Part shown: in pieces, positions 1 through 3,000 of the stretch
How positions within the stretch are numbered: the first letter of the stretch is position 1
Layout: each line of letters opens with the position of its first letter
Source: a virus
Taxonomy: Duplodnaviria; Heunggongvirae; Uroviricota; Caudoviricetes
Length of the DNA: 7,099 bases
Strand: one strand, 5' to 3'
Virus record (IMG/VR): IMGVR_UViG_2675903425_000008
Program-made: the position numbers

Positions 1-3000
1 TTATTATCATTTTGCGGGTCCTTTCCGGCGATCCGACAGGTTACGGGGCGGCGACCTCGCGGGTTTTCGCTATTTATGAAAATTTTCCGGGATCCATGTC
101 CGGTTTCTCTTCAAGTTAACTATATGAAAAATATAAAAACAGGTCTTCTGTGAACCGGACATGAACAAAAAACAGACATGTAAACCGGACATGACCGGTT
201 TTGTTGTGATTGTGAGGTGAGAGTTTTTGCGAGGTGAGGAGTGGCTACGCAGACTGAAGTTGCCAGGCATTTAAGTCTGACCGATCGCCAGCTTCGCAGA
301 TTGCAGAAATTGCCGGGTGCCCCGATATCGAATAAGCGAGGGCAACTGGATCTGGATGCCTGGCGCGATTTTTACATATCGTATCTGAGGAGAAGTAAAA
401 ACGATGTGCCTGATGGCGATAGCGAAGACGACTATGAGGAGAAATTGCTTATTGCCAGATGGGAACTGACAGCAGAACAGGCTGTTACACAGCAGTTAAA
501 AAANNNNNNNNNNNNNNNNNNNNNNNNNNNNNNNNNNNNNNNNNNNNNNNNNNTTAAAAAATGAGGTGTCAAAAGGAAAACTGATTGACACCGGGTTCTG
601 TATTTTTGCCCTCAGTAAGCTGGCAATGGCGTTATCCAGTACGCTTGATTCCATCCCTTTATCCATGCAGCGACAGTTTCCTGATTTAACACCGCGCCAT
701 CTTGACCATCTGAAAACCCTTATTGCTAAGGGGGCAAATCAGTGTGCGCGGGCAGGGGATAAATTACCGGATTTACTTGATGAATATATCAGAGCAACAA
801 CTGAATAATATGATGAGCGCTGTCACAACTGCATTACAGCCCCTGATAAGGGCATTGCCGGTGACGCCAGTTGAATGGGCTGATCAAAATTATTATCTGC
901 CTAAAGAATCTTCATATGGTGAGGGCGAATGGAAAACGCTGCCATTCCAGATCGCCATCATGAACAGTATGGGGAATGATCAGATCCGCACTGTTAATCT
1001 GATTAAATCTGCCCGTGTTGGCTATACAAAGATGTTGCTGGGGGGGGGCGGGTATTTTATTGAGCATAAATCCCGAAACAGTCTGCTTTTTCAGCCCACG
1101 GATTCTGCCGCTGAAGATTTTATGAAGTCTCACGTGGAGGCGACGATTCGGAACGTGCCATGCCTGAAAGACCTTTCCCCATGGCTGGGTCGTAAACATC
1201 GTGACAATACTCTCACGCTGAAACGCTTTTCATCGGGCGTCGGTTTCTGGTGCCTGGGCGGCGCTGCCGCCAAAAACTACCGTGAAAAATCCGTTGACGT
1301 GGTCTGCTATGACGAACTTTCCTCGTTCGAGCCGGATGTCGAAAAAGAGGGCTCGCCAACCCTGCTGGGGGATAAGCGTATTGAGGGGTCGGTGTGGCCA
1401 AAATCCATTCGCGGCTCGACGCCTAAAATCAAAGGCACCTGCCAGATCGAAAAAGCCGCTAACGAGTCGGCGCATTTTATGCGTTTTTATGTGCCCTGCC
1501 CGCACTGTGGGGAGGCGCAGTATCTGAAATTTGGCGATGAGTCCACGCCTTTTGGGCTTAAATGGGAGAAGGACAGCCCTGAAAGTGTTTTCTACCTCTG
1601 TGAACATCATGGCTGCGTGATCCATCAGTCTGAACTGGACCAGAGCAACGGGCGGTGGATCTGTGAAAACACGGGCATGTGGACCCGTGACGGTCTGACG
1701 TTTTTCAGCGCCCGGGGTGATGAAATTCCGCCGCCGCGCTCCATCATGTTCCATATCTGGACGGCGTACAGTCCGTTCACCACCTGGGTACAGATTGTCT
1801 ATGACTGGCTGGATGCACTGAAAGATCCCAACGGCCTGAAAACCTTTGTGAACACCACGCTGGGCGAGACCTGGGAAGAGGCCGTGGGCGAAAAACTCGA
1901 TCACCAGGTACTGATGGATAAGGTGGTGCGTTACACGGCGGCGGTGCCTGCCCGGGTGGTTTATCTGACGGCGGGCATTGACTCGCAGCGAAACCGTTTT
2001 GAGATGTATGTCTGGGGATGGGCTCCGGGAGAGGAAGCCTTTCTGGTGGATAAAATCATCATTATGGGGCGTCCTGATGAGGAAGAGACGCTGTTACGTG
2101 TGGATGCGGCGATCAACAAAAAATACCGCCATGCGGATGGCACCGAAATGACTATTTCCCGTGTCTGCTGGGACACCGGGGGGATCGATGGTGAAATTGT
2201 TTATCAGAGATCAAAAAAACACGGTGTTTTCCGGGTGCTGCCGGTAAAAGGCGCATCTGTCTATGGCAAGCCGGTGATCACCATGCCAAAAACCCGCAAT
2301 CAGCGGGGCGTGTATCTGTGTGAAGTGGGAACGGACACCGCAAAAGAAATTCTCTATGCCCGTATGAAAGCCGATCCCTCGCCTGCGGATGAAGCCACGT
2401 CGTATGCCATCCGTTTTCCTGATGATCCGGAGATTTTTTCGCAGACAGAGGCGCAGCAACTGGTGGCGGAAGAGCTGGTGGAGAAGTGGGAAAAAGGAAA
2501 GATGCGTCTGCTGTGGGATAACAAAAAGCGGCGTAACGAAGCGCTGGACTGCCTGGTGTATGCCTACGCGGCATTACGTGTGTCCGTGCAACGCTGGCAG
2601 CTTGATCTGGCTGTACTGGCAAAATCCCGGGAAGAAGAGACGACCCGGCCAACCCTGAAAGAACTGGCAGCGAAGCTGTCCGGAGGAGTGAATGGTTACA
2701 GTCGCTGAACTGCAGGCGCTGCGTCAGGCGCGCCTTGATTTATTAACCGGTAAACGGGTGGTGTCTGTCCAGAAAGATGGTCGCAGAATTGAATATACGG
2801 CGGCTTCTCTGGATGAGCTTAACCGGGCGATCAATGATGCGGAGTCGGTACTGGGGACAACCCGGCGTCGCCGTCGTCCGCTGGGAGTGAGGTTATGAAA
2901 CGAACGCCTGTCCTGATTGATGTGAACGGCGTTCCGCTTCGTGAGAGTCTCAGCTACAACGGGGGCGGTGCAGGATTTGGCGGGCAAATGGCGGAGTGGT

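What the first reader, a model, noticed from the sequence alone, without database searches (positions are those of the whole stretch)
1..240. Lambda-type cosN with a non-lambda cosB repeat set and a divergent small-terminase DNA-binding domain
The cohesive-end region and the 45 bp either side look like the lambda cos junction as I recall it. Downstream of position 90 the sequence departs from lambda and carries three copies of aaccggacatg (one inverted at 93-105, direct at 153-164 and 183-194). The N-terminal ~50 residues of the Nu1-like protein also do not resemble lambda Nu1, whereas its C-terminus and gpA do. This fits a swapped packaging-specificity module (cosB plus the Nu1 recognition domain), the situation known for lambda versus phage 21, which share cohesive ends but not cosB specificity.
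Basis: partly seen in the sequence, partly recalled or inferred. Interest (0 to 1): 0.45.

Follow-up and report, generated by a model that had tools for sequence, protein, structure and literature searches.

The report
Undescribed lambda-like phage packaging-recognition module
This is the DNA-packaging start site of a lambda-like E. coli O157 prophage. It keeps lambda's cutting site but has its own repeated recognition sequences and a matching small-terminase DNA-binding domain, making a distinct, common and apparently uncharacterised packaging-specificity class built in the known way.

Summary
Window 46-90 is 100% identical to lambda bp 1-45, and window 3-90 is 96.6% identical to the lambda cos junction. 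Similarity stops at base 91.

AACCGGACATG occurs three times exactly and once with one mismatch, all within 95-200. Chance expectation is 0.17.

The layout is the lambda cosB plan:
- R3 at 95-105 (lambda position 50-60)
- an IHF-like site at 117-129
- inverted R2 at 153-163
- R1 at 183-200

In seven relatives from five genera, the R3 and R2 cores sit at the same positions, exactly 55 bp apart, while spacers and cohesive ends differ.

The TerS N-terminal domain falls outside Pfam Phage_Nu1, which covers lambda, 21 and N15 in full. In 25 of 29 distant homologues, TCCGGT lies just upstream of the gene. TerS residue 20 covaries with the base before TCCGGT (Arg with G, others with T).

This class is in 1170 of 5426 complete E. 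coli genomes.

The window matches O157 Sakai prophage Sp4. Its TerS gene is split at the N-run, where an O157 genome carries ISEc8. Published work shows Sp4 DNA is still packaged.

Verdict: a new member of a known kind. Binding and specificity are inferred, not shown.

The parts
16..22 (+). cosQ core GGGTCCT (packaging termination signal)
   Evidence: Identical to lambda and 21. Labelled cosQ for Sp4/Sp14 in PMC2669165 Fig S8. Conserved in 24 related loci.
44..59 (+). cosN. The 12-nt cohesive end GGGCGGCGACCT is at 46-57, with flanking CG dinucleotides.
   Evidence: 100% identical to lambda.
75..89 (+). Conserved cosN-cosB spacer TATGAAAATTTTCCG (the I2 IHF site of phage 21 and lambda)
   Evidence: Annotated as I2 in M81255. 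Labelled IHF in PMC2669165 Fig S8. Identical to lambda.
95..105 (+). R3 box CATGTCCGGTT (lambda coordinates 50-60), the proposed critical TerS site
   Evidence: The core TCCGGT sits at lambda coordinate 54/55 in all 8 complex loci. It lies 82-86 bp from cosQ in 22 of 24 loci.
117..129 (+). I1-like IHF site TAACTATATGAAA (consensus YAANNNNTTGATW, two mismatches)
   Evidence: Same position (coordinate 72/73) in 6 of 8 loci. It is a perfect consensus, TAACCAATTGATT, in the Klebsiella and E. coli P0075 loci. Lambda has TAACTTAATG and phage 21 has TAACTTTTTG at the equivalent place.
153..163 (-). R2 box, inverted relative to R3 (AACCGGACATG on the + strand; 16-nt version 149-164)
   Evidence: The core is exactly 55 bp from the R3 core in all 8 loci.
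183..200 (.). R1: AACCGGACATG at 183-193 (same orientation as R2), overlapping a 1-mismatch copy in R3 orientation at 190-200. Together they form an imperfect palindrome.
   Evidence: R1 is at the same coordinate (139) in PhiR12 and E. kobei and at 152 in Klebsiella. It is absent in the Salmonella P0080 and Citrobacter loci.
241..503 (+). TerS (Nu1-like) gene, 5' part. It has a GTG start. Residues 1-55 (241-405) form the winged helix-turn-helix DNA-binding domain, with the predicted recognition helix at residues 15-22.
504..553 (.). Run of 50 N flanked by the 8-bp direct duplication TTAAAAAA (496-503 and 554-561). This is the site of an ISEc8 (IS66-family) insertion that splits TerS.
   Evidence: O157:H7 TR01 carries ISEc8 at exactly this point with the same duplication. 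The intact gene in O157:H7 PV15-279 and PhiR12 reads straight through. PMC2669165 reports the Sp4 nu1 gene disrupted by ISEc8.
554..808 (+). TerS gene, 3' part (oligomerisation and TerL-binding part), Phage_Nu1-like
   Evidence: Pfam PF07471, E=2.6e-13. 45% identical to lambda Nu1.
780..2708 (+). Large terminase gpA (ATPase and nuclease domains). Its start overlaps the end of TerS, as in lambda.
   Evidence: Pfam GpA_ATPase and GpA_nuclease. 66% aa identity to lambda gpA. Start position taken from the PhiR12 annotation.

Best explanation
Window 1-240 is the cos site of a lambda-like prophage of the E. coli O157 Sakai Sp4/Sp14 type. It works on the lambda plan.

Proposed mechanism:
- The two boxes are brought together across an IHF-induced bend at the I1-like site (117-129).
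- R1 (183-200) acts as an accessory site.
- This anchors the large terminase gpA on the lambda-identical cosN (44-59). gpA makes nicks staggered by 12 nt and starts packaging rightwards.
- cosQ (16-22) serves in termination.

The recognition code differs from lambda, 21, N15 and Gifsy-1. The box is CAT(G/T)TCCGGTT. It is read by a recognition helix (T/S)(D/E)RQxRxL (residues 14-21) from a TerS DNA-binding family that lies outside Pfam Phage_Nu1. Residue 20 (Arg here) probably reads the G just 5' of TCCGGT.

The module should therefore give its own packaging specificity while sharing cohesive ends with lambda.

In this copy TerS is split by an insertion sequence. The cos can be used only in trans, by TerS from a sibling prophage of the same class.

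Shown here: sequence anatomy, conservation, covariation and fold prediction. Inferred: TerS and IHF binding, the bend geometry, and exclusion of other terminases.
For: Repeats and lambda identity:
- Four box copies lie within 95-200 and none elsewhere. Expected 0.17; 0 of 200 shuffles reach 4.
- Lambda identity stops at base 90.

Positional conservation in eight loci (window; PhiR12; Klebsiella; a second E. coli type; two Salmonella; Citrobacter; E. kobei). TerS identity to the window ranges from about 60% to 99%, and the set includes six different cohesive-end sequences.
- R3 core is at coordinate 54/55 in all.
- Inverted R2 core is at 109/110, exactly 55 bp away, in all.
- An IHF-like site is at 72/73 in 6 of 8. 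Spacers diverge.
- Variable box positions change in step between R3 and R2 within each phage: ATG, ATT or ACT before TCCGGTT.

Distant homologues of the DNA-binding domain (Pseudomonas, Aeromonas, Enterobacter, Microbulbifer, Azospirillum and others):
- 25 of 29 have TCCGGT within 60 nt upstream of TerS. Observed 39, expected 1.15, Poisson P about 1e-45.
- R3 is tied to cosQ (82-86 bp in 22 of 24 loci), not to the gene start (13-142 bp).

Protein-DNA covariation:
- Arg20 goes with G before TCCGGTT in 5 loci from 4 genera.
- D, E, N, S or T at residue 20 goes with T in 25 of the 26 loci that have a scorable box upstream of TerS (one of them, L028, has G before its second box); in the 26th, L035, residue 20 is L and the base is A or T.
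- Four loci whose helix lacks the DR..R motif lack the box.
- The E. kobei domain (Arg20) is no closer to the window's domain than to the T-type domains.

Fold: the AlphaFold2 model (pLDDT 79) gives strand, helices 4-10 and 15-22, a wing at 32-36, then helix 38-52. The best structural neighbours are MerR-type winged HTH domains, including lambda TerS in 6hn7_B (rmsd 2.4 A over 57 columns) and RppC.

Function:
- PhiR12_1 to PhiR12_5 are deposited as complete phage genomes with K-12 MG1655 or E. coli C listed as host, and they carry this module.
- Sp4 DNA is packaged although its nu1 gene is disrupted. The authors attributed this to Sp14 terminase acting on the identical cos (PMC2669165).
Against: - No binding, footprint or packaging-specificity experiment exists for these boxes. 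Every functional step rests on analogy with lambda and 21.
- The I1-like site in the window has two mismatches to the IHF consensus. Two of the eight loci lack a recognisable site.
- R1 points the same way as R2, unlike lambda and 21, so its role may differ.
- Foldseek matches are not statistically significant (best E = 0.37). The domain is small.
- The Arg20/G covariation rests on few independent lineages and could partly reflect shared ancestry.
- The box shares CATGTC..GG with the phage 21 R boxes, so some cross-recognition by 21-type TerS is not excluded.
- Lambda itself has TTTCCGGTTTA at bp 38-48.
Confidence: 0.8

Rival explanations
1. The repeats do bind the small terminase, but the specificity is not distinct. 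The module belongs functionally to the phage 21 group, or cross-reacts with it.
For: The phage 21 R boxes (CATGTCGG(G/A)CC) share CATGTC..GG with CATGTCCGGTT. The 5' end of gpA is 81% nt identical to phage 21 gene 2.
Against: The phage 21 gp1 DNA-binding domain is of the lambda type: it has a full-length Phage_Nu1 match and is 12/54 identical to this one. The core TCCGGTT is absent from cosB of phage 21. Relatives of this class have T instead of G before the core, which removes most of the resemblance to 21.
Confidence: 0.1
2. The repeats are not terminase sites. They would be regulatory or structural signals for something else: an operator for another DNA-binding protein, or a transcription-terminator hairpin at 182-201, or coding sequence of the minus-strand ORF at 70-270.
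For: The consensus scan calls two terminator-like hairpins, at 182-201 and 87-103. A 66-aa ORF lies on the minus strand, and a short one is annotated in PhiR12.
Against: - The hairpin at R1 is not kept in Klebsiella or E. kobei, while the box is.
- Stop-free stretches on the minus strand vary from 37 to 76 aa among relatives.
- No promoter-like site was found, and no Rfam family matched.
- The box position is fixed relative to cosQ/cosN, not to any gene.
- The box covaries with the TerS recognition helix.
Confidence: 0.05
3. In this particular prophage the region is a dead relic. With TerS split by an insertion sequence, the cos site has no present function.
For: The 50-N run with an 8-bp target duplication lies exactly where ISEc8 sits in O157:H7 TR01. 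In another O157 genome, the copy whose sequence matches the window almost exactly has an intact TerS gene but frameshifted gpA and portal genes. Many truncated or frameshifted TerS versions are in the databases.
Against: The cos DNA is 100% identical to copies next to intact TerS genes. Genomes that carry the class have a median of 2 copies. Sp4 DNA with this very defect was detected in DNase-resistant particles (PMC2669165). This rival concerns only this copy, not the nature of the module.
Confidence: 0.15

Closest known systems
Phage lambda cos and gpNu1 (phi80 has the same R-box sequences and a near-identical TerS)
   Same: - Identical cohesive end and cosQ, and identical spacer up to bp 45.
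- R3 at bp 50-60.
- An IHF-like site between inverted R3 and R2, with a third box downstream.
- The TerS gene starts at about bp 196, followed by an overlapping gpA gene.
- TerS has an N-terminal winged HTH and a Nu1-like C-terminal part.
   Different: - The box sequence is CATGTCCGGTT, not CGTTTCC(G/T)TTCT.
- The DNA-binding domain is 24% identical and lies outside the Pfam Nu1 model.
- R1 has the orientation of R2, not of R3.
- gpA is only 66% identical.
Phage 21 cosB and gp1 (the classic case of shared cohesive ends with different specificity)
   Same: Same logic and layout. The box shares CATGTC..GG. The 5' part of the large terminase gene is 81% nt identical.
   Different: The phage 21 DNA-binding domain is of the lambda type (full Phage_Nu1 match). 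Its boxes lack TCCGGTT. Its R1 orientation follows lambda.
N15 (simple cosB: R3 plus a remote rR2 inside the TerS gene) and Monarch (complex cosB with the same recognition helix)
   Same: This TerS/box family also comes in two architectures. The complex form is seen here and in other enterobacteria. The simple form has an R3-only site just upstream of TerS, plus an inverted AACCGGAA inside the gene 196-206 bp from R3. That inverted copy was found in 14 of 29 distant loci, mainly gamma-proteobacterial.
   Different: The N15 TerS DNA-binding domain and R3 sequence are unrelated to these.
E. coli O157:H7 Sakai prophages Sp4 and Sp14 (Asadulghani et al. 2009, PMC2669165)
   Same: This is the same element. 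The cosQ, cosN and I2 sequences and the Nu1 protein printed in their Fig S8 match the window, including the ISEc8-split nu1 of Sp4.
   Different: Their alignment stops at ...CCGGGATCCATGT. It does not describe cosB, R boxes, the IHF I1 site or a distinct specificity.
PICI cos sites read by Rpp-TerS heterodimers (Fillol-Salom 2019; Murialdo and Feiss 2022)
   Same: Lambda-type cosQ/cosN joined to a non-lambda cosB, read by a winged HTH of the TerS fold.
   Different: Here a complete TerS and gpA follow the site, there is no rpp gene, and the site has three boxes plus an IHF site rather than R3 only. There is no detectable sequence similarity to RppC.

Membership tests
Lambda-like cos packaging site (cosQ-cosN-cosB with TerS/TerL downstream) | 12-nt 5' cohesive-end sequence related to lambda, flanked by the conserved nick-site dinucleotides | tested here: met
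   GGGCGGCGACCT at 46-57, identical to lambda. Window 46-90 equals lambda 1-45. The actual nicking was not observed.
Lambda-like cos packaging site (cosQ-cosN-cosB with TerS/TerL downstream) | cosQ about 30 bp upstream of cosN | tested here: met
   GGGTCCT at 16-22.
Lambda-like cos packaging site (cosQ-cosN-cosB with TerS/TerL downstream) | Complex cosB: R3 at about bp 50-65, an IHF site, inverted R2, then R1 | tested here: met
   R3 at lambda coordinates 50-60, I1-like site at 72-84, R2 at 108-118, R1 at 138-155. The R1 orientation differs from lambda.
Lambda-like cos packaging site (cosQ-cosN-cosB with TerS/TerL downstream) | [quoted passage not shown] | tested here: met
   AlphaFold2 secondary structure and structural neighbours. 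Pfam Phage_Nu1 on residues 49-150. GpA_ATPase and GpA_nuclease in the next gene.
Lambda-like cos packaging site (cosQ-cosN-cosB with TerS/TerL downstream) | TerS and IHF bind cosB, and this is required for cosN nicking | not testable with these tools
   Only indirect support: positional conservation, protein-DNA covariation, and packaging of Sp4 DNA in PMC2669165.
Lambda packaging-specificity group | R boxes of the CGTTTCC(G/T)TTCT type and a lambda-type recognition helix (RTIQNWQE) | tested here: not met
   No such boxes. The helix is DRQLRRLQ.
Phage 21 packaging-specificity group | R boxes CATGTCGG(G/A)CC and the gp1 helix PRTIERWQ | tested here: not met
   Partial box resemblance only. The DNA-binding domain is 12/54 identical.
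N15/Monarch packaging-specificity group | N15-type TerS recognition helix and R3 sequence | tested here: not met
   BLASTP aligns only residues 59-164. The N15 left end has no TCCGGT.
PICI cos / Rpp hijacking system | R3-only cosB followed by an rpp gene, with no terminase genes | tested here: not met
   TerS, gpA, W, B, C, D and E follow the site. No similarity to RppC by sequence.
Pfam PF07471 Phage_Nu1 | Match above the gathering score over the whole protein, including the DNA-binding domain | tested here: inconclusive
   The score of 68 bits is above the cut-off of 30, but only residues 49-150 match. The DNA-binding domain (residues 1-48) is outside the model, whereas lambda, 21 and N15 match from residue 1-6.

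The most novel reading that the evidence does not exclude
This is a fourth, uncharacterised packaging-specificity class of lambda-like phages.

- It is built on a TerS DNA-binding family distinct from the Nu1 type and spread across alpha- and gamma-proteobacteria.
- Its recognition code is readable: TCCGGTT is read by the DRQxR helix, and residue 20 sets sub-specificity, Arg for G.
- In EHEC it would define which defective prophages can be packaged in trans by which siblings. That would shape the mobilisation of effector-carrying prophages.
Probability: 0.7. Interest if true: 0.5.

Novelty: new member of a known kind. Interest (0 to 1): 0.4.

Why it matters
Packaging specificity decides which DNAs in a cell carrying several prophages end up in virions.

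- **Prevalence.** This class is in about a fifth of complete E. coli genomes, often in two or more copies. It is roughly as common as the phage 21 class, and it occurs in O157:H7.
- **Mobilisation.** A shared cosB/TerS class would explain how defective prophages such as Sp4 are packaged by siblings. It would also predict which prophages or satellites can and cannot be mobilised together.
- **A testable recognition code.** The family offers natural variation for a small-terminase winged helix: the TCCGGTT core, the Arg20-G pairing, and complex versus simple cosB. Lambda TerS has been hard to study in vitro.
- **Limits.** The principle itself, shared cohesive ends with different cosB, has been textbook knowledge since lambda versus 21.

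Tried and rejected
- **Pfam and NCBIfam on the N-terminal 87 residues.** No family matched. PHROGs places the domain in phrog_7289, 'unknown function'.
- **PDB sequence search.** Only chance-level hits.
- **First protein search with the window fragment.** It returned almost only truncated or frameshifted E. coli entries and was of no use for an alignment. Repeating it with a four-sequence alignment worked.
- **Foldseek against PDB.** The right fold class came up, but no hit was significant.
- **Rfam and promoter scans of 1-900 and 1-500.** Nothing relevant. Two terminator-like hairpins were rejected as not conserved.
- **Literature.** Searches for the box strings and for cosB plus O157 found no description of these boxes. 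The two Virology 2015 papers from the Feiss laboratory, which survey lambda-like cosB sites, are not held. A prior description there cannot be excluded.
- **Other known classes.**
  - N15 and Gifsy-1 were checked directly: both have different DNA-binding domains and boxes.
  - Monarch was set aside on the literature alone: PMC4669245 states that its recognition helix is identical to N15's.
  - RppC was checked only by PDB sequence search, which showed no similarity.
- **Single-sequence search of representatives.** It gave only 50 clusters. One hit, P0142, is a translated tandem repeat and is spurious.
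Full report
**What is in the window**

The 7099 bases are the left arm of a lambda-like prophage.
- The cos site is at 1-240.
- A small-terminase (TerS) gene starts at GTG 241. Its frame is broken by 50 N at 504-553 and resumes to the stop codon at 808.
- After it come gpA (780-2708), W, B, C/Nu3, D and the start of E.
- Window 1-503 is 100% identical to E. coli O157:H7 PV15-279, and 554-3059 is 99.96% identical.

- The cohesive end GGGCGGCGACCT lies at 46-57.
- Window 46-90 equals lambda bp 1-45 exactly. 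Window 1-45 equals the right end of phage 434 exactly.
- Against the lambda junction, 3-90 is 96.6% identical. Nothing aligns from 91 to 864.
- AACCGGACATG occurs at 95-105 (minus strand), 153-163 and 183-193 (plus strand). A one-mismatch copy lies at 190-200 (minus strand).
- There is no other copy in the window. Expected by chance 0.17; 0 of 200 shuffles reach 4.

**Anatomy in lambda coordinates (window minus 45)**

- The R3 box is at 50-60, the position of lambda R3 (bp 50-65, PMC9026076).
- TAACTATATGAAA at 72-84 lines up with the I1 cores of lambda (TAACTTAATG) and phage 21 (TAACTTTTTG).
- The inverted R2 box is at 108-118 and R1 at 138-155. TerS starts at 196, against 191 in lambda.

**Comparative test, close relatives**

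A profile search gave a graded series of TerS homologues. I fetched their loci.

The eight loci are the window, PhiR12, Klebsiella, a second E. coli type, two Salmonella, Citrobacter and E. kobei. TerS identity to the window ranges from about 60% to 99%. The set includes six different cohesive-end sequences.
- The TCCGGT core of R3 is at coordinate 54/55 in all eight.
- The inverted core of R2 is at 109/110, exactly 55 bp away.
- An IHF-like site sits at 72/73 in six. In two of those it is a perfect YAANNNNTTGATW.
- The spacers have diverged.
- The variable positions of the box change together in R3 and R2 of each phage (ATG, ATT or ACT before TCCGGTT). That is expected if one protein reads both boxes.
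- R1 is present in four of the eight loci. It always has the orientation of R2, which differs from lambda and 21.

**Comparative test, distant relatives**

TerS residues 1-55 are 53-62% identical to the TerS of Aeromonas phiARM81ld (a linear-plasmid prophage), E. coli 705R4 and Pseudomonas LPPA33. A scan of one genome per species added 25 loci, from Pseudomonas to Azospirillum.
- In 25 of 29 loci, TCCGGT lies within 60 nt upstream of the TerS start, usually as TTCCG(G/C)TTCCGGT. Observed 39, expected 1.15, P about 1e-45.
- The box is 82-86 bp from the cosQ core in 22 of 24 loci. Its distance to the start codon ranges from 13 to 142 bp.
- The box is therefore positioned relative to the cutting site, not relative to the gene.

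**Protein-DNA covariation**

- The predicted recognition helix (T/S)(D/E)RQxRxL is nearly invariant.
- Residue 20 is Arg in the five loci whose boxes read G-TCCGGTT.
- Residue 20 is D, E, N, S or T in 25 of the 26 remaining loci with a scorable box, and those boxes read T-TCCGGTT (L028's second box has G). In L035 it is L, with A or T before the core.
- Four loci whose helix lacks the DR..R pattern have no such box. One of them carries a different triple repeat.
- The E. kobei domain (Arg20) is no closer to the window's domain than to the T-type domains. Shared ancestry alone is therefore an unlikely explanation, but the sample is small.

**The protein**

- Pfam Phage_Nu1 covers lambda, 21 and N15 TerS end to end. 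It covers only residues 49-150 of this one and nothing of phiARM81ld TerS.
- Identity to lambda is 24% in residues 1-55 and 45% in residues 96-169. Against phiARM81ld and 705R4 the pattern is reversed, at 58-62% and about 17%.
- This crossed pattern shows domain-level shuffling.
- AlphaFold2 on 43 sequences (pLDDT 79) predicts a winged helix-turn-helix: helices 4-10 and 15-22, a wing at 32-36 and helix 38-52. Long helices follow.
- Foldseek finds no significant match. Its top hits are MerR-type winged HTH domains, including RppC and lambda TerS in 6hn7_B (rmsd 2.4 A over 57 columns).

**Other known classes excluded**

N15 and Gifsy-1 were checked directly. Both have lambda-like DNA-binding domains and different boxes. 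Monarch shares the N15 recognition helix according to PMC4669245.

**Prevalence**

Among 5426 complete E. coli genomes:

| Class | Genomes with a match |
|---|---|
| This class | 1170 (1871 places, median 2 per genome) |
| Phage 21 type | 1214 |
| Lambda type | 4019 |

Among 50,697 phage records, only PhiR12_1, _2, _2_star, _4 and _5 carry the module.

**The N-run**

- In PhiR12 and O157:H7 PV15-279 the gene reads CAGCAGTTAAAAAATGAGG without a break, giving a 169-aa protein.
- The window has TTAAAAAA, then 50 N, then TTAAAAAA.
- O157:H7 TR01 has an ISEc8 element at that exact point with the same 8-bp duplication.
- Asadulghani et al. (PMC2669165) report that nu1 of Sakai prophage Sp4 is disrupted by ISEc8.
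  - They also found that Sp4 DNA is nevertheless found in particles.
  - They suggested that Sp14 terminase probably does this, because the cos sequences are identical.
- Their Fig S8 aligns cosQ, cosN and I2 with lambda but stops at the first bases of R3.
- I found no description of the boxes in the searchable literature. Two relevant Virology papers are not held.

**Mechanism and confidence**

By position, orientation, spacing and covariation, the boxes are the TerS-binding R sites of a complex cosB. IHF would bend the DNA between R3 and R2. The bound TerS would place gpA on a lambda-identical cosN. I put 0.8 on this.

I put about 0.7 on it. The partial resemblance to the phage 21 boxes is the main caveat.

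**Verdict**

This is a new member of a known kind and is moderately interesting. It is a common class in EHEC that appears to be uncharacterised, and it has an unusually clear comparative signal for its recognition code.

Noticed in passing
window 496-561: A run of 50 N is flanked by an 8-bp direct duplication, TTAAAAAA. An O157:H7 genome (TR01) has an ISEc8 (IS66-family) element at exactly this point. The TerS gene of this prophage is therefore split, as reported for Sakai Sp4.
   Followed up: yes
window 210-238: There is a direct duplication of a Shine-Dalgarno-like 12-mer (TTGTGAGGTGAG / TTGCGAGGTGAG) just before the GTG start of TerS. It is also present in PhiR12. Its role is unknown.
   Followed up: no
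L008 bp 245-260; L009, L010, L012-L023 (TerS gene +174/+183): Relatives with a simple, R3-only cosB carry an inverted AACCGGAA inside the TerS gene, 196-206 bp from R3. It encodes a conserved (E/K)PE in an otherwise variable linker. This parallels the remote rR2 site described for N15. It is absent at that place in the complex-cosB loci, including the window.
   Followed up: partly
L002 (lambda) bp 38-48: Lambda itself has TTTCCGGTTTA between cosN and its R3. This resembles the box of the present class but lies about 13 bp closer to cosN. In the window the same place reads TTTCCGGGAT.
   Followed up: no
L004 (phage 21) R boxes; window 862-1147: The phage 21 R boxes (CATGTCGG(G/A)CC) share CATGTC..GG with the window box. 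The 5' part of the window's gpA gene is 81% nt identical to phage 21 gene 2, against 68% to lambda A.
   Followed up: partly
L027 (Pararoseomonas baculiformis), 200 nt upstream of TerS: A TerS of the same family has a different recognition helix (QQAVSAL). It is preceded by three GGGTTGCGGGTTGCG-type repeats instead of TCCGGT boxes. This may be another specificity.
   Followed up: no
L046 (O157:H7 PV15-279) 3143-5421: In another O157:H7 genome, the copy of this module that matches the window almost exactly has an intact TerS gene. Its gpA and portal genes are annotated as frameshifted. Many truncated or frameshifted TerS proteins of this class are also in the protein database.
   Followed up: partly
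P0142: A 2465-aa 'protein' made of 17 tandem repeats scored against the TerS domain. It looks like translated satellite DNA and is a spurious hit.
   Followed up: yes
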